Part shown: piece by piece, positions 28,569 through 32,927 of the stretch
Layout of the letters: each line of letters starts with the position of its first letter
Position numbering within the stretch: the stretch's first letter is position 1
Source of the DNA: Alphaproteobacteria bacterium
Lineage (GTDB): Bacteria; Pseudomonadota; Alphaproteobacteria; UBA828
Length of the DNA stretch: 64,000 bases
Assembly (NCBI GenBank): GCA_963667785.2
Contig: CAXXMU010000002.1
Span: 224,001 to 288,000 of the forward strand
Direction: 5' to 3'
Position numbers and translations under genes: made by a program
Notes under the pieces: generated by a model
Database searches by the model: none
Told to the model about the DNA's origin: nothing
Seen by the model: the letters and a program-made list of their open reading frames with translations, nothing else

Positions 28569-29759
28569 TCACCCGGCCGCGACGGCGGCGGGGTCGCGGC
28601 CGACGATGCGGCGGTATATCTCGGGATCGGTCGCACCCTCGCTGCCGATCACCAGCACCCGCGATGTCCCGGTCAGCGCCAGGGCGTCCCGCGCGTTGGC
28701 GTCTCCCACAGCGGCGATGAGGCCGCCCAGCGCCGCGGCGCCGGATTCGCCGAGCACCAGCGGCGGATCGCCCCCGCCGGGCGACGCGGCCCGGCGCATG
28801 GCATCCACGGCGCCGTCGTCGTCGAGCGCCATGAAGGCGAAGGCGCCCCGCTCCAGCAGTCGCCAGGCCAGCGGCGAGACCTCGGCGGCGGCGAGGCAGG
28901 CCATCACCGTGTCGAGATCGCCGGAGGCCGGGCTCGGCTCGCCCGCGAGCGCGCTCTGGTAGAGGCAGTCGGCGGCGGTGGGCTCCACCACTACGCCCTT
29001 CGGGCTCCCGGCGGCCGCGTCCTGGCGGAAGGCGCCGATCACGGCGGCGGCGAGCCCGCCGACCCCACCCTGGACGAAGAGATGGGTGGGAGTGTCGCCC
29101 GCCAGCGCGGCCCTGATCTCGTCCACCAGCATGGTGTAGCCGTGCATGACCCGGCTCGGCGCCTCGTCGCCGCCGGCGTGCGAGGTGTCCGAGACCAGGA
29201 TCCAGCCGTTGGCGCGGGCCTCGTCGGCGCAGGTGCGCACGGCCTCGTCGTAGCTGCCGTCCACGCGCTGGATGGCGGCGCCCTGGGCCGCGATGGCGCG
29301 CTCGCGGCCTGCGCTCACCGGCCCCGGCAGGAACACCGTGCAGCGCGCACCGGCGCGGCGCGCGCCCCAGGCGACGGCGAGCCCGTGGTTGCCGTCGGTG
29401 GCGCAGCAGACCGTGAGGTCGCGCACGCGCGCGCCGGCCCGGCCCGCGGCCACCTCGGCGATGGAGAGCGCGTCTCCCAACCGCTCGCGCAGCAGGTGAA
29501 CCACGGCGTAGGCGCCGCCCAGCGACTTGAAGCTGCCGAGGCCGAAGCGCCCGCTCTCGTCCTTGAGCCAGAGCGCCCCGATGCCGAGCGATGCCGCGAG
29601 GCCCTCCAGCCGGTGCAGCGGGGTCGGCCGGTAGCCCTCGAAGCTCGTGACCGCGGCGCGGGCCGCGGCGCGCCGCTCCGGCAGGATCACCGGCTGCGGG
29701 TCGTCCTCCGGCGCGGGCGCGTGGCGCGGGTTCAGGTGGAGGCGGAAGGGGGCGCTCAT
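28569..29759 (-). CDS. dpaL: Diaminopropionate ammonia-lyase (fold-type II PLP enzyme)
   Basis: YRPTPL, LKDESGRFGLGSFKSLGG, ATDGNHG, VSDTS, QGGVGG, GESGAA, SEGATDP. Confidence 0.85.
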   Translation of the reverse strand: MSAPFRLHLNPRHAPAPEDDPQPVILPERRAAARAAVTSFEGYRPTPLHRLEGLAASLGIGALWLKDESGRFGLGSFKSLGGAYAVVHLLRERLGDALSIAEVAAGRAGARVRDLTVCCATDGNHGLAVAWGARRAGARCTVFLPGPVSAGRERAIAAQGAAIQRVDGSYDEAVRTCADEARANGWILVSDTSHAGGDEAPSRVMHGYTMLVDEIRAALAGDTPTHLFVQGGVGGLAAAVIGAFRQDAAAGSPKGVVVEPTAADCLYQSALAGEPSPASGDLDTVMACLAAAEVSPLAWRLLERGAFAFMALDDDGAVDAMRRAASPGGGDPPLVLGESGAAALGGLIAAVGDANARDALALTGTSRVLVIGSEGATDPEIYRRIVGRDPAAVAAG

Positions 29760-29782
29760 GGCGTGCCGTCCGTCGCGCGGGC

Positions 29783-30760
29783 TCAGCGCAGGTCCGCGAG
29801 CAGCGGCATCACCTCGTCGGCGAAGCGCTGCAGATGCGCGAGCTTCTCCCGCTCGTGCGCGAGCACGTTCAACACGAGGTGGCGCACGCCGGCCGCGTGG
29901 AACGCGCGGATCGCGTCCGCCACCGCCTCGGGCTCGCCGAGCGCGCAGTAGCGCTCCGCCGCGCGCGAGAAGTCCATGGCGTAGCGGATGCTCAGGAACC
30001 TGGCGGCGAAGGCAAGCGCGCTCTCGCGGTCCTTGTCGAGCCGGAGGAAGAGCAGATGGCCAGTGCCGAAGCGCTCGAGCGTGCGCCCGGCCGCCTCTGC
30101 GGCCGCGGCGATGGTCTCCAGTGACTGGCGGTAGCGCTCCGGCGTCACCACGTAGGAGAGCCAGCCGTCGGCGAGCCGGCCGGTGCGCCTGAGCGCGGCA
30201 TCGGCGCGGCCGCCGCACCAGATCGGCGGGCCGCCCGGTTGCGCCGGCGGCGGCTGCATCGCGACCTCGGGGAAGGGATAGAAGCGCCCCTCGTGGGCGA
30301 CCGGCCGCCCCGACCAGAGCTTGCGCAGCACTTGGATGCCCTCGCCGAGCCGCGCGCCGCGCTCCTCCACCGGCACGCCGCAGAGCTGGAACTCGAGGGG
30401 GAACTCGCCGCCGACGCCGACGCCGAAGATCAGGCGGCCGTTCGAGACCGTATCGAGGGTCGCGACCTGCTTCGCCACCGGCGCCGGGTGGCGCAGGGGG
30501 AGCAGGTGGACCGCCGTGCCGATGGCGAGGCGATCGCTCAGCGCCGCGGCCTGCGCCAACTGGATCAGCGGGTCGAGGATCGGGCCTGCGAAGGCGACGT
30601 GATCGCCGGACCAGATCGAATCGAAGCCCAGTGCGTCGAGCGCGCGGACCACGTCGGGCAGGTCGCCGCCGCGCGACGACGGCGGCGACTCGTCGTACTC
30701 GCTCGGCGCCAGGACGTGCTGCAAGCCGATGCTGAGCCTCGGCTCGAGGGGTAGCTCCAC
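29783..30760 (-). CDS. LLM-class flavin/F420-dependent oxidoreductase
   Basis: GFDSIWSGDH, PLRHP..VAKQVATLD..SNGRL, PPIWCGG, ADGW. Confidence 0.85.
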   Translation of the reverse strand: MELPLEPRLSIGLQHVLAPSEYDESPPSSRGGDLPDVVRALDALGFDSIWSGDHVAFAGPILDPLIQLAQAAALSDRLAIGTAVHLLPLRHPAPVAKQVATLDTVSNGRLIFGVGVGGEFPLEFQLCGVPVEERGARLGEGIQVLRKLWSGRPVAHEGRFYPFPEVAMQPPPAQPGGPPIWCGGRADAALRRTGRLADGWLSYVVTPERYRQSLETIAAAAEAAGRTLERFGTGHLLFLRLDKDRESALAFAARFLSIRYAMDFSRAAERYCALGEPEAVADAIRAFHAAGVRHLVLNVLAHEREKLAHLQRFADEVMPLLADLR

Positions 30761-30837
30761 GACCGTCTCCCGCGTTGGTCGGAACGGCCGCGCACTCTAA
30801 CGGATCGAACGCCTCGGCGCATCGCGCGCCCCGCGGC

Positions 30838-32142
30838 CTAGGCCGTGTCGAGCCCCGGGTAGATGGGGAAGGCGCGGCAGAGCGTGCGCACGTCTGCGCG
30901 AACGGCCTGCTCGACCGCCTCGTCCCGCGCCCCGCCGGCCGCGGCCATGGCGTGCAGCACGTCGGCGATCCAGCCGCCGATGCGGCGGAACTCGTCTTCG
31001 CCGAAGCCCCGCGTGGTGCCCGCCGCCGAGCCGAAGCGGAGCCCCGAGGTCACTCTGGGCGGCTGCGTGTCGCCCGGCACCGCATTCTTGTTGCAGGTGA
31101 GGCCGGCGGCCTCCAGCGCGTCGGATGCCGCCGCTCCCGTGAGCCCGAGCGGGCGCAGGTCCGCCACCAGGAGCGGCGTATCGGTGCCGCCGGCGACGAC
31201 GGCGACGCCGCGCGCCATCAGCGTGTCGGCGAGCGCGCGGGCGTTGGCCAGCACCCGGGCGGCGTAGGCCCTGAACGAGGGCTTCAGCGCCTCGCCCAGG
31301 CACACCGCCTTGGCCGCGACGGCGTTGAGGATCACGCTGCCCTGCACGCCGGGGAACACCGCGCTGTCGAGCTTGCGGGCGAGCACCGCGTCGTCGGTGA
31401 GGATGAGCCCGCCGCGCGCGCCGCGCAGGTTCTTGTAGGTGGTCGCCGTGGTCACGTGGGCGTGGGGGAGGGGGCTCGGATGCGCGTCGCCGGCGACGAG
31501 GCCGGCGAAGTGGGCCATGTCGGCGAGCAGGTAGGCGCCTGCCGCGTCGGCGATGCGGCGGAAGCGGGCGAAGTCGATGGCCCGCGGATAGGCCGAGCCG
31601 CCGCAGATGAGGAGCTTCGGCCGGTGCTCGCGCGCGAGCCGCTCGACCTCCTCCATGTCGATGAGGCCCGCCGCGTCGGTGCCGTAGCGGACCGGGCGGA
31701 ACCACTTGCCGGTGAGGTTCGGCGCGGCGCCGTGGCTGAGATGGCCGCCGGCATCGAGCGCCATGCCGAGCACCACATCGCCCGGCTGCAGCAGGGCGAG
31801 GAAGACCGCCTGGTTCGCCTGGCTGCCGGAGTGGGGCTGGACGTTTGCGAAGTCGCAGCCGAAGAGCTCCTTCGCCCGCTCGACGGCGAGCGATTCGATC
31901 CGGTCGGCGAAGGCGGCGCCGCCGTAGTAGCGGGCGCCGGGGCGGCCCTCCACGGTCTTGTTGACGATGACCGAGCCCAGCGCATCGAGGCTCGCCCGGC
32001 TGACCAGGTTCTCCGACGCGATCAGCTCGATCCCGTCCTGCTGGCGCTCCAGCTCGCCCGCGAGTGCCGCATGGACCTCCGGGTCGGCGGCGAACAGGCG
32101 GTCGAGGAAGTAGCCCGGCTCGAGCGCCGGGGAGTCTTTCAT
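30838..32142 (-). CDS. Divergent serine hydroxymethyltransferase paralogue (2-methylserine hydroxymethyltransferase/aldolase-like)
   Basis: [28 protein letters not shown] retained; variants [20 protein letters not shown]. Confidence 0.8.
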
Positions 32143-32927
32143 TGCGCCGCCGCCGGCTCGAGCAGGCAGTCGTCGGCGAGCGGCACCACCGGGGTGAAGT
32201 CGGTGTGATGCTTGTGCTCGGGCCGGGCGAACGCGGTCTGGGCGTTGGCGACGGGGTTGAGGATGAGCGAGAAGATGGCGCGGTCCCAGGGCGACATGTT
32301 GCCGGGCGAGCCGTGCACCATCAGGTCGCCGAAGATGAGCGCGGTGCCGGGGGGGCCGAGCGCGGGCCGGATGCTGCCTTCCGCGATCAGGTCCGTCACC
32401 GTCTCGCGGTCCACCACCCAGAGCGGATAGCTCGTGCTCGCGGTGTCGTGGAAGGTGGGCAGCGGCGCGTGCCGCTGCGAGCCGGGGATGAAGTAGAGCG
32501 GGCCGTTGTAGTGGCTCACCTCGTCCAGCAGGATGTGCAGGTTGAGCGCCTGCGGCGCCGGCACGCCGTCGTCCCGGTGGTGGGTGGCGAAGTCGTAGTG
32601 CCACTGCCAGACGTCGCCCTCGAAGGCGGCCTTCACGTTGACCTTCACCTGCTGGATGTAGAGATCGGGGCCTGCGATCTGCTGCGCCGGTCCGACCAGG
32701 CGCGGATGGCGCGCGAGGCGGGCGAAGAGCTCGCTGCGCTGGTGCAACCCCATGACCGTGCGGGGTACGCCGCCGGTCTTCTCGGCGACGTTGGCCTCGC
32801 TCTCCTCCTCGAAGAGCGGCGGCAGGGCGGCGCGTATCGCCGCCACCTCGGCCGCGGAGAAGAGGCCGGGAAGGATTAGCAGGCCGTCCCGTTGGAAGGC
32901 CTCGAGATGCGCGCTGTCGAGCTTCAC
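32139..32927 (-). CDS. Fe(II)/2-oxoglutarate dioxygenase, PhyH family, ectoine hydroxylase (EctD)-like
   Basis: [17 protein letters not shown] (HxD), [27 protein letters not shown] start. Confidence 0.85.

What the first reader, a model, noticed from the sequence alone, without database searches (positions are those of the whole stretch)
28569..32927. Candidate undescribed amino-acid catabolic pathway: EctD-like hydroxylase, atypical SHMT/aldolase, LLM oxidoreductase and diaminopropionate ammonia-lyase
Seen: four tightly spaced co-directional genes; the dioxygenase stop overlaps the SHMT-like start (32139-32142). Known: a 2OG hydroxylase followed by an SHMT-fold aldolase is the logic of carnitine biosynthesis (trimethyllysine hydroxylation then retro-aldol cleavage), and DAPAL converts 2,3-diaminopropionate to pyruvate and 2 NH3. 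No ectABC or eut/doe genes are present in the window. Inference: the cluster hydroxylates or oxidatively dealkylates a non-proteinogenic amino acid (for example an N-substituted diaminopropionate or a cyclic osmolyte), cleaves or transfers a C1 or aldehyde unit, and deaminates the C3 remainder. I do not know this combination as a described pathway.
Basis: partly seen in the sequence, partly recalled or inferred. Interest (0 to 1): 0.75.

Follow-up and report, generated by a model that had tools for sequence, protein, structure and literature searches.

The report
Oxygenase paired with variant SHMT
A sponge-associated bacterium carries five neighbouring genes for breaking down an unidentified small amino acid; the core, an ectoine-hydroxylase-like oxygenase paired with an unusual serine hydroxymethyltransferase, recurs widely and has no known function.

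Summary
The four genes are real, intact and co-directional on the minus strand. A fifth gene, a carboxypeptidase-type amidohydrolase, sits directly upstream at 33038-34336.

The block splits into two modules.

Module 1 is the PhyH/EctD-like Fe/2OG oxygenase plus a distinct SHMT type. This SHMT has NKTVEG for NKYAEG and TYK for THK.
- The pair is adjacent in 13 of 47 genome loci and 13 of 79 metagenome loci.
- The adjacent pairs lie on several deep branches of both gene trees.
- The oxygenase is not EctD. It scores 141.7 bits against a 336.5 cut-off and matches 9 of 15 fixed consensus positions. EctC was not found in the genome.

Module 2 is amidohydrolase, F420-type LLM and DAPAL.
- It is found only in this bacterial family.
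- A sister genus has these three genes contiguous, without the oxygenase-SHMT pair.
- In two relatives the block is split next to IS transposases.

My best reading, at low confidence: the oxygenase oxidises a small N-alkyl or alpha-amino acid at the glycine/serine/C1 node, most likely by sarcosine-type N-demethylation. The SHMT then captures glycine and C1. The main rival is beta-hydroxylation followed by retro-aldol cleavage.

The substrate is unknown, and no description of this combination was found in print. Verdict: new variant of known kinds, moderate interest.

The parts
33038..34336 (-). AMIDO: metal-dependent amidohydrolase of the carboxypeptidase / Xaa-Pro-dipeptidase type (432 aa). 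It is the first gene of the block and was not in the original finding.
   Evidence: PF01979, 64.1 bits. NF051886 Xaa-Pro dipeptidase, 178.4 bits against a cut-off of 500. Nearest solved sequences include L-Arg carboxypeptidase Cc2672 (3mtw, E 5.9e-31), a Xaa-Pro dipeptidase (2qs8) and ochratoxinase (4c5y). It lies upstream of DIOX in 8 of 47 genome loci and upstream of LLM in G053.
32139..32927 (-). DIOX: Fe(II)/2-oxoglutarate oxygenase of the PhyH family, in the EctD / GriE / proline-hydroxylase-H11 clade (262 aa).
   Evidence: PF05721, 104.5 bits. TIGR02408 EctD, 141.7 bits, below the cut-off of 336.5. AF2 model pLDDT 89. Structural matches: GriE Z 32.3, H11 Z 31.5, EctD Z 28.2. H110, D112, H205, R216 and R235 are invariant in 41 homologues.
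32139..32142 (-). 4-nt overlap of the DIOX stop codon with the SHMT start codon (ATGA).
   Evidence: In L009, L012, L015 and L049 the DIOX match ends at the coordinate where the SHMT match begins. In L050 the two matches overlap by 10 nt.
30838..32142 (-). SHMTv: a variant type of serine hydroxymethyltransferase (434 aa). It reads NKTVEG, TYKNL, HLSHG and QGSV where canonical GlyA has NKYAEG, THKTL, HLTHG and QGGP.
   Evidence: PF00464, 467.4 bits; NF000586, 532.3 against 335. It is 63% identical to the genome's canonical copy at C6:699922. Canonical GlyAs form a separate clade.
29783..30760 (-). LLM: luciferase-like oxidoreductase of the F420-dependent TIGR03619 (Rv2161c) family (325 aa).
   Evidence: TIGR03619, 193.5 against 166.9. 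Nearest solved sequences are methylene-H4MPT reductases, at only 79 bits. The genome encodes cofD and cofH above their cut-offs.
28569..29759 (-). DAPAL: diaminopropionate ammonia-lyase family PLP enzyme (396 aa).
   Evidence: NF006058, 432.9 against 276. TIGR01747, 297.1 against 274. TIGR03528, 316.3, below 532.25. E 1.4e-70 to Salmonella DAPAL and 6e-70 to E. coli DAPAL, with the SFKSLGG, TDGNHG and SDTS stretches aligned to the enzyme's Lys/Asp/Asp region.

Best explanation
The block is a five-gene operon-like unit assembled from two separable modules.

Module 1 (DIOX + SHMTv) is an ancient and widespread two-gene unit. DIOX is an EctD/GriE/proline-hydroxylase-like Fe(II)/2OG oxygenase. It binds a small carboxylate-bearing amine through a conserved C-terminal Arg and hydroxylates a carbon next to the nitrogen. 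My committed guess is oxidative N-demethylation of sarcosine or a similar N-methyl amino acid. This would give glycine (or the parent amino acid) plus formaldehyde via a carbinolamine/imine. The translationally coupled SHMT variant then joins glycine and the C1 unit, as methylene-THF, into serine.

Module 2 (AMIDO + F420-dependent LLM + DAPAL) is specific to this bacterial family.
- The carboxypeptidase-type amidohydrolase frees the amino acid from an N-acyl or dipeptide precursor.
- The DAPAL-family lyase deaminates the C3 product (serine or 2,3-diaminopropionate) to pyruvate and ammonia.
- The role of the LLM is open. It may act on an alcohol, an aldehyde or a C1 unit using F420.

Shown: gene identities, the two-module structure, and recurrence of DIOX-SHMTv. 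Inferred: every substrate and every reaction.
For: Coupling of DIOX and SHMTv:
- They are adjacent in 13 of 47 genome loci, 12 of them with the variant SHMT.
- They are adjacent in 1 of 6 variant-SHMT loci of a class-wide sample.
- They are adjacent in 13 of 79 metagenome loci retrieved through the SHMTv motif. There DIOX is the commonest neighbour cluster.
- Adjacent pairs sit at 5 separate places of the DIOX tree. They need at least 4 label changes on the SHMT tree.

SHMTv probably still acts as an SHMT:
- It is the only SHMT found in genome G002.
- It lies next to hemB in L121 and L201; in L119 hemB lies about 3.7 kb away.

Contexts of DIOX homologues and of SHMTv point to methylated-amine and glycine metabolism:
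- MttB plus an OYE/Pyr_redox demethylase-like flavoprotein (4 loci), BCCT (6 loci) and TRAP (6 loci).
- RidA-DIOX-SHMTv: RidA found by Pfam in L202, L260 and L261, in a neighbour cluster that spans 5 loci. L242 and L262 were assigned from the shared gene order.
- Hydantoinase A/B near the pair in L019.
- A choline-sulfatase-like gene after SHMTv in 6 loci.
- The own-genome paralogue P1 lies directly after soxB-soxA.

Carboxylate anchor: R235 is invariant. In the HMMER alignment it lines up with the RPE stretch of the proline hydroxylase H11. I infer, without having aligned it, that it plays the role of GriE Arg242, which salt-bridges the substrate carboxylate (PMC5676206, passages read).

Module structure. 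F420 capacity.
Against: - No N-demethylase is known in the EctD/GriE/H11 clade. All solved relatives hydroxylate ring or side-chain carbons.
- A canonical GlyA would do for C1 capture. The co-varying active-site changes in SHMTv therefore suggest a changed substrate.
- The genome already has soxB and soxA above their cut-offs.
- The sox adjacency of paralogue P1 is not kept in 5 relatives.
- Most DIOX homologues (34 of 47 loci) and most SHMTv loci (45 of 58 with upstream sequence) lack the partner. Four of 5 genomes with an unlinked DIOX have only canonical GlyA.
- True DAPALs use serine poorly (recalled). The DAPAL here passes a DAPAL equivalog model, which fits diaminopropionate better than serine.
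- The LLM has no assigned role.
- The five-gene order is known only from close kin.
Confidence: 0.33

Rival explanations
1. Hydroxylase/aldolase logic, as the first reader proposed and as in carnitine biosynthesis. AMIDO releases a (basic) amino acid. DIOX hydroxylates its beta-carbon or a methyl group. SHMTv acts THF-independently: it either cleaves the beta-hydroxy amino acid to glycine plus an aldehyde, or decarboxylates the further oxidised product. The F420-dependent LLM oxidises or reduces the alcohol or aldehyde.
For: - All solved relatives are C-hydroxylases of free small amino acids or ectoine: GriE, H11 and EctD, Z 28-32.
- SHMTv has co-varying replacements of canonical active-site residues (NKY to NKT, THK to TYK, QGG to QGS) in every DIOX-linked copy. 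This fits a changed substrate.
- AMIDO's nearest solved relatives are Arg/Lys carboxypeptidases.
- Two precedents were read as passages. In Aib catabolism a hydroxylase is followed by dehydrogenases and the SHMT homologue AibC, which acts as a decarboxylase (PMC7782822). GriE works with the F420-type reductase GriH (PMC5676206).
- A second DIOX paralogue in this genome is directly followed by another TIGR03619-like LLM.
Against: - SHMTv is the sole SHMT found in G002.
- SHMTv often stands without DIOX, next to hemB or choline-sulfatase-like genes. This suggests ordinary SHMT chemistry.
- RidA next to the pair suggests imine intermediates, which beta-hydroxylation does not create.
- DAPAL has no role in this scheme.
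- TMLH belongs to a different 2OG family (recalled).
Confidence: 0.28
2. A single pathway centred on 2,3-diaminopropionate. An N-substituted DAP, for example an N-acyl or N-methyl DAP such as BMAA, is deacylated by AMIDO and dealkylated by DIOX. The C1 unit is captured by SHMTv and the DAP is deaminated by DAPAL.
For: - DAPAL passes the DAPAL equivalog NF006058 and keeps the catalytic region.
- AMIDO resembles carboxypeptidases for basic residues.
- All five genes are contiguous in the window clade.
Against: - DIOX-SHMTv occurs widely without DAPAL. In some searches, DAPAL appears only beside window-clade pairs: 6 of 13 SHMT-linked genome loci, and 2 of 13 DIOX-linked metagenome loci.
- The modules are separated in G005 and G306. 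G053 lacks DIOX-SHMTv but keeps AMIDO-LLM-DAPAL.
Confidence: 0.12
3. Module 2 (AMIDO-LLM-DAPAL) is an independent, short reductive heterocycle pathway. The F420H2-dependent LLM reduces a ring. AMIDO opens it to a DAP derivative. DAPAL finishes the breakdown. DIOX-SHMTv is merely inserted between the genes.
For: - The reductive urate pathway ends in DAP cleaved by YgeX. Its Chloroflexota variants carry a putative F420-dependent PF00296 enzyme beside the ring-opening amidohydrolase (PMC12507026, passages read).
- G053 has AMIDO-LLM-DAPAL contiguous.
- The genome can make F420.
Against: - AMIDO is not SsnA (NF005540, 26.6 bits against a cut-off of 444) and no HyuA model appears among its matches. 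It is closest to peptide or N-acyl carboxypeptidases.
- The ORFs I annotated near the block (GST, SnoaL, a solute-binding protein, mfd) include no XdhD, YgeW or YgeY homologue. These families were not searched for specifically.
- The trio is seen in only two genera.
Confidence: 0.1
4. Nothing special. The genes are an ordinary ectoine hydroxylase and an ordinary second GlyA that happen to be neighbours, next to unrelated housekeeping genes.
For: - JGI names many homologues 'ectoine hydroxylase'.
- SHMTv passes the general SHMT model.
Against: - The EctD equivalog score is far below its cut-off. Six of 15 fixed consensus positions differ. EctC was not found in the genome.
- The adjacency recurs across distant lineages, with a 4-nt overlap here.
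- The adjacent SHMT is always the variant type.
Confidence: 0.04

Closest known systems
Ectoine hydroxylase EctD (TIGR02408; PDB 4Q5O, 3EMR)
   Same: Same PhyH fold: Z 28.2, rmsd 2.3 A over 244 residues, 34% identity. It shares the H-x-D...H iron triad and part of the 17-residue signature region.
   Different: - It scores 141.7 bits against a cut-off of 336.5.
- Only 9 of the 15 fixed signature positions match. The consensus was taken from a figure legend in PMC8313267.
- EctC was not found in the genome.
- It is shorter than the solved EctDs (262 aa against about 305-315).
GriE leucine 5-hydroxylase and trans-3/4-proline hydroxylase H11 (PDB 5NCI, 7E01, 8H7Y)
   Same: These are the best structural and sequence matches. 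GriE: Z 32.3, 33% identity. H11: Z 31.5, 35% identity, E 1.3e-46. Both act on free amino acids. R235 here is aligned with the RPE stretch of H11 and probably corresponds to the carboxylate-binding Arg of GriE.
   Different: Identity is only about a third. GriE and H11 have no SHMT partner. The substrate of DIOX is unknown.
Sarcosine oxidase operons that contain glyA and a serine deaminase (recalled from Pseudomonas and Corynebacterium literature, not read here)
   Same: The logic is the same: N-demethylation gives glycine plus a C1 unit, SHMT makes serine, and a lyase makes pyruvate.
   Different: There the demethylase is a flavoprotein (SoxBDAG), glyA is canonical and the deaminase is SdaA/B. 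Here the corresponding genes would be a 2OG oxygenase, a variant SHMT and a DAPAL-family enzyme.
Carnitine biosynthesis: trimethyllysine hydroxylase followed by HTML aldolase / SHMT
   Same: A 2OG hydroxylase is followed by an SHMT-fold retro-aldol step.
   Different: TMLH belongs to the TauD/BBOX family, not PhyH (recalled). It is a eukaryotic pathway with no gene cluster.
Aib catabolic cluster of Rhodococcus wratislaviensis (PMC7782822)
   Same: A hydroxylase makes a hydroxymethyl amino acid, dehydrogenases oxidise it, and an SHMT homologue (AibC) removes the carbon.
   Different: That hydroxylase is a diiron enzyme of the amidohydrolase superfamily with Rieske partners. AibC has lost SHMT activity.
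Reductive uric-acid (2,8-dioxopurine) pathway ending in YgeX/DpaL (PMC12507026)
   Same: Amidohydrolase steps yield 2,3-diaminopropionate, which a DAPAL cleaves. Some variants carry an F420-type luciferase-family reductase.
   Different: No XdhD, SsnA, HyuA, YgeW or YgeY equivalents were seen in the block. AMIDO is of the carboxypeptidase type.

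Membership tests
Ectoine hydroxylase EctD | Score above the curated cut-off of the equivalog model TIGR02408 | tested here: not met
   141.7 bits against a cut-off of 336.5.
Ectoine hydroxylase EctD | 17-residue consensus F-X-W-H-S-D-F-E-T-W-H-X-E-D-G-M/L-P | tested here: not met
   Residues 107-123 read [17 protein letters not shown], so 9 of 15 fixed positions match. The consensus is from PMC8313267; the sequence is.
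Ectoine hydroxylase EctD | Ectoine synthesis genes in the genome (ectC) | tested here: not met
   PF06339 gave 0 matches in G000 (98% complete). It was found in 2 of the 10 relatives searched alongside it.
PhyH-type Fe(II)/2OG oxygenases (PF05721) | Pfam score above the gathering threshold, and an H-x-D...H triad | tested here: met
   104.5 bits against 22. H110, D112 and H205 are invariant in 41 sequences.
Serine hydroxymethyltransferase (GlyA) | Family models PF00464 and NF000586 | tested here: met
   467.4 bits, and 532.3 against 335.
Serine hydroxymethyltransferase (GlyA) | Canonical active-site motifs NKYAEG, T-H-K (the PLP lysine) and QGGP | tested here: not met
   The lysine is kept, but the motifs read NKTVEG, TYK and QGSV. 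The genome's other copy and 22 of 28 alphaproteobacterial loci have the canonical forms. The roles of the residues are recalled, not tested.
Serine hydroxymethyltransferase (GlyA) | Ser/Gly/THF activity | not testable with these tools
   Indirect only: the variant is the only SHMT found in G002.
Diaminopropionate ammonia-lyase | Curated models | tested here: inconclusive
   NF006058, 432.9 against 276, is met. TIGR01747, 297.1 against 274, is met. TIGR03528, 316.3 against 532.25, is not met.
Diaminopropionate ammonia-lyase | PLP lysine and two catalytic Asp | tested here: met
   SFKSLGG, TDGNHG and SDTS align with the corresponding stretches of 5YGR. The residue roles are recalled.
F420-dependent LLM oxidoreductases (TIGR03619) | Model cut-off, and F420 biosynthesis genes in the genome | tested here: met
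   193.5 against 166.9. cofD scores 293.2 against 257.45 and cofH 498.6 against 374.1. Actual cofactor use is not testable here.
Xaa-Pro dipeptidase of the amidohydrolase superfamily (NF051886) | Equivalog cut-off | tested here: not met
   178.4 bits against 500. The general family PF01979 is met, at 64.1 against 25.
Reductive urate pathway cluster | SsnA-type ring-opening amidohydrolase | tested here: not met
   AMIDO against NF005540 SsnA scores 26.6 bits against 444, over the N-terminal 60 residues only.

The most novel reading that the evidence does not exclude
The EctD-like oxygenase and the NKTVEG/TYK serine hydroxymethyltransferase form a widespread, uncharacterised two-enzyme module of marine and sponge-associated Proteobacteria. 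The module would carry out an oxygen- and 2OG-dependent route for a common small nitrogen compound. One possibility is a flavin-independent sarcosine or N-methyl-amino-acid demethylase coupled directly to serine synthesis. Another is a bacterial hydroxylase/aldolase route for a betaine-type amino acid. In this sponge-symbiont lineage the module has been combined with an F420-dependent step and a diaminopropionate lyase into a new catabolic operon.
Probability: 0.3. Interest if true: 0.75.

Novelty: new variant of a known kind. Interest (0 to 1): 0.55.

Why it matters
Proteins of this oxygenase group are routinely labelled 'ectoine hydroxylase' but fail the tests for that enzyme. Correcting the label matters for osmolyte budgets inferred from marine and sponge metagenomes.

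The paired SHMT type is common. Its co-varying active-site replacements have, as far as my searches show, not been described.

If the pair proves to be a 2OG-dependent demethylase or hydroxylase wired to the glycine/serine/C1 node, it would add a new entry point for methylated amines or unusual amino acids. Such compounds are a major currency between sponges and their symbionts.

The F420-type enzyme in an alphaproteobacterial symbiont is also unusual.

Tried and rejected
- Riboswitch or other known RNA upstream of the genes: none at E <= 1 in window 28000-36500, and none at E <= 0.1 in six related loci.
- Promoter and terminator scan of 28000-35000: 0 promoter-like sites and 1 terminator-like site, on the wrong strand and no more than in shuffles. 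It says nothing about transcription units.
- Earlier findings of this scan: three look-ups returned nothing.
- PDB codes as search terms gave only irrelevant papers. 'EctD-like/EctE' gave mostly noise plus PMC8313267. A six-term search on 2OG, sarcosine and demethylation found 0 papers. A search for proline hydroxylase H11 found nothing useful.
- Expression. Contigs from two RNA libraries of one study, 92-99% alike, cover AMIDO (about 33033-34364). One 153-nt piece lies on DIOX. The remaining genes had next to no cover in these runs. These are contigs of a relative, depth is given per contig, and DNA carry-over is not excluded. I therefore draw no conclusion about co-transcription or relative expression.
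- DIOX + LLM as a recurrent pair. A second paralogue (P2, 40% identical) is followed by another LLM, but only within this genus. None of 29 other EctD-like loci of the class sample has an LLM within 1.5 kb. The idea is kept as a hint only.
- sox-operon adjacency of paralogue P1. It is not conserved in G053, G307, G005, G306 or G227. No SoxG domain was found in the long open frame upstream of P1.
- LLM as a methylene-folate reductase. This rests only on generic similarity of 79 bits to Mer, so it was not pursued.
- I did not run a complex prediction, because I do not claim that the proteins bind each other.

Full report
**Anatomy**

The window has about 71% G+C. Its relatives' records are titled Rhodospirillales or Alphaproteobacteria MAGs. 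The stretch itself is held mainly by runs labelled sponge metagenome.

Between mfd (24723-28253) and a divergent GST gene (34552-35199), five genes lie head to tail on the minus strand:

| Gene | Coordinates | Length |
|---|---|---|
| AMIDO | 33038-34336 | 432 aa |
| DIOX | 32139-32927 | 262 aa |
| SHMT | 30838-32142 | 434 aa |
| LLM | 29783-30760 | 325 aa |
| DAPAL | 28569-29759 | 396 aa |

- The DIOX stop and the SHMT start overlap by 4 nt.
- The other gaps are 110, 77 and 23 nt.
- Third-position G+C is 0.94-0.96 in all five frames.

**What the proteins are**

DIOX:
- It is a PhyH-family Fe/2OG oxygenase.
- It hits the EctD equivalog at 141.7 bits, against a cut-off of 336.5.
- It matches 9 of the 15 fixed positions of the published 17-residue EctD consensus.
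- EctC was not found in the genome.
- An AlphaFold model built on 41 homologues has pLDDT 89.
- The model matches GriE leucine 5-hydroxylase best (Z 32.3, rmsd 2.2 A, 254 residues). Next come the trans-3/4-proline hydroxylase H11 (Z 31.5) and EctD (Z 28.2).
- All three act on free, small, carboxylate-bearing amines.
- The iron triad and an Arg (R235) are invariant in the family. R235 lines up with the RPE stretch of H11. I infer, without having aligned it, that it corresponds to GriE Arg242, which binds the substrate carboxylate (PMC5676206, passages).

SHMT:
- It passes the general SHMT models. It is only 63% identical to the genome's second copy.
- It carries NKTVEG, TYKNL, HLSHG and QGSV where that copy and solved SHMTs have NKYAEG, THKTL, HLTHG and QGGP.

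LLM:
- It passes the F420-dependent TIGR03619 model.
- The genome has cofD and cofH above their cut-offs.

DAPAL:
- It passes NF006058 and TIGR01747 but not TIGR03528.
- It keeps the Lys/Asp/Asp region of the solved enzymes.

AMIDO:
- It is closest to Arg/Lys carboxypeptidases, Xaa-Pro dipeptidases and ochratoxinase of the amidohydrolase superfamily.

**Does the set recur?**

I searched one genome per species with DIOX as the query and obtained 47 loci.
- The full order AMIDO-DIOX-SHMT-LLM-DAPAL occurs in 6 of them. All have DIOX 86-88% identical. Five are followed by mfd and one ends at a contig end.
- Two more close relatives (L012, L015) have AMIDO-DIOX-SHMT followed by a MatE gene.
  - In those genomes LLM-DAPAL-mfd-dxr lies elsewhere.
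  - IS transposases sit upstream of the LLM in L087, the one examined.
- A sister genus (G053) has AMIDO-LLM-DAPAL contiguous. Its best DIOX match is a 51% paralogue.
- Beyond this family:
  - none of 28 other DAPAL loci has the LLM within 1.5 kb (DAPAL is found in 54 of 301 Alphaproteobacteria);
  - none of 27 AMIDO loci outside G000 and G053 has any partner (AMIDO is found in 27 of 301);
  - none of 29 EctD-like loci has an LLM, SHMT, DAPAL or AMIDO within 1.5 kb (EctD-like genes are found in 53 of 301).

The four-gene or five-gene set is thus a lineage-specific arrangement.

**The part that does recur**

SHMT follows DIOX in 13 of the 47 loci, including distant ones with DIOX 51-76% identical.
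- In 12 of these the SHMT is the variant type. The exception, L051, lies 660 nt away and is canonical, beside riboflavin genes.
- On a DIOX tree of 50 rows (L053 was dropped for lack of a long match), the SHMT-linked genes sit at five separate, mostly basal places.

I then looked in the other direction, starting from the SHMT.
- In a class-wide sample, 6 of 28 top SHMT loci are the variant type, and 1 of those has DIOX beside it.
Eighty were fetched and 79 encode an SHMT.
- All 70 of these in which the first motif is visible read NK[T/S]VEG.
- DIOX is adjacent in 13 of the 79. That is 13 of the 58 with at least 900 nt upstream: 11 upstream and 2 downstream.
- DIOX is the commonest neighbour cluster. 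An AsmA gene, in 11 loci, comes next.
- Three of the 13 are window-type contigs. The other ten come from other lineages.
- On an SHMT tree of 86 rows, the 16 canonical alphaproteobacterial GlyAs form one clade (SH-aLRT 99), with all variants outside it. The DIOX-linked label needs at least 4 changes.

Kin are not independent and the counts are small. Even so, the pairing is clearly not confined to one lineage.

The pairing is also not obligatory. Four of five genomes with an unlinked DIOX have only canonical GlyA.

**What the contexts suggest**

Unlinked DIOX homologues lie beside several kinds of gene:
- BCCT transporters (6 loci);
- TRAP transporters plus a second PhyH gene (6 loci);
- MttB plus an OYE/Pyr_redox flavoprotein of the N-methyl-amino-acid demethylase type (4 loci);
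- a nitrile-hydratase/FadB group (7 loci).

Linked pairs are preceded by RidA. Pfam found it in L202, L260 and L261, and its neighbour cluster spans 5 loci. Pairs are followed by hemB in L201; L232 shares the same gene order, but its hemB was not scanned. In L019 the pair lies near a fused hydantoinase A/B gene.

The variant SHMT without DIOX is followed by a choline-sulfatase-like gene in 6 loci. It also lies directly beside hemB in L121, and about 3.7 kb from hemB in L119.

In genome G002 the variant is the only SHMT found, which suggests it still does ordinary SHMT chemistry.

The genome holds two DIOX paralogues.
- P1 (52% identical) lies directly after soxB-soxA here, but not in five relatives. 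Where its neighbourhood was examined (G000, G053, G307, G005), an EamA gene follows it.
- P2 (40% identical) sits in a genus-wide cluster: M20 deacylase, a Urt-like ABC transporter, DIOX2 and a second LLM.

**Mechanism**

These contexts point to small methylated amines and to the glycine/serine/C1 node. RidA points to imine intermediates.

I therefore favour, at about one chance in three, the following reading.
1. DIOX hydroxylates a carbon bound to nitrogen. This would be sarcosine-type N-demethylation, giving glycine plus formaldehyde.
2. The coupled SHMT turns the two products into serine.
3. In this lineage, AMIDO supplies the substrate from an N-acyl or dipeptide precursor.
4. The DAPAL-family lyase takes the C3 product to pyruvate and ammonia.

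- It agrees better with the known chemistry of the clade.
- It agrees better with the altered SHMT active site.
- It agrees with two precedents that I read: Aib catabolism, where a hydroxylase is followed by dehydrogenases and an SHMT homologue that acts as a decarboxylase (PMC7782822), and GriE working with the F420-type reductase GriH.

A DAP-centred single pathway, and an independent reductive heterocycle route for AMIDO-LLM-DAPAL modelled on the reductive urate pathway (PMC12507026), remain possible but weaker.

No substrate is shown by any of my results.

**Novelty and verdict**

Each enzyme belongs to a known family. The following appear undescribed in the searches I ran:
- the oxygenase clade;
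- the co-varying SHMT type;
- their recurrent pairing;
- the lineage-specific fusion with an F420-type enzyme and a DAPAL.

Those searches cover open-access text only.

I rate this a new variant of known kinds, with interest 0.55.

The tallies include one or two genomes flagged as unpublished (G245, G045). No other claim rests on them.

Noticed in passing
G000:C2:218328-219239 (about 5.7 kb before the window start) and G000:C8:85172-87418: The genome encodes cofD and cofH/fbiC above their curated cut-offs. This alphaproteobacterial, sponge-associated organism probably makes coenzyme F420, and it carries several TIGR03619-like LLM genes.
   Followed up: partly
L130 (G000:C2:686921-694747): A paralogous cluster reads M20 ArgE/DapE/YgeY-type deacylase, Urt-like ABC transporter, a second EctD-like oxygenase (40% identical) and a second F420-type LLM. 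It is conserved in three other genomes of the genus. It has the same hydrolase-oxygenase-LLM logic as the window, without SHMT or DAPAL.
   Followed up: partly
L129 (G000:C1:163181-170162): A third EctD-like paralogue (52% identical) lies directly downstream of soxB-soxA and is followed by an EamA transporter gene. The EamA pairing is kept in three relatives examined (G053, G307, G005). The sox adjacency is not kept.
   Followed up: yes
window 34000-37000: G+C drops to 0.61-0.66, against about 0.71 elsewhere. The stretch holds a GST gene, an open frame ending at 36272 that I did not characterise, and a SnoaL-like gene. It may be a recently acquired insert next to the block.
   Followed up: no
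metagenome loci L219 and five others (cluster 7): The variant SHMT is directly followed on the same strand by a choline-sulfatase-like gene (Sulfatase + Choline_sulf_C) in 6 loci. Another set of 11 loci has a convergent AsmA gene.
   Followed up: partly
G000, whole genome: There are seventeen matches to the soxB model. Many lie in open frames of about 800-1100 aa, which I take to be dimethylglycine/sarcosine-dehydrogenase-like. This suggests an unusually large set of enzymes for oxidising methylated amines.
   Followed up: no
L239 and L259 (metagenome contigs): These are window-type blocks in which about 2.8 kb separates SHMT from LLM (77 nt in the window). I did not look at what the insert holds.
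   Followed up: no
window 33033-34364: Contigs from two sponge metatranscriptome libraries of one study, 92-99% alike, cover the amidohydrolase gene almost end to end.
   Followed up: partly
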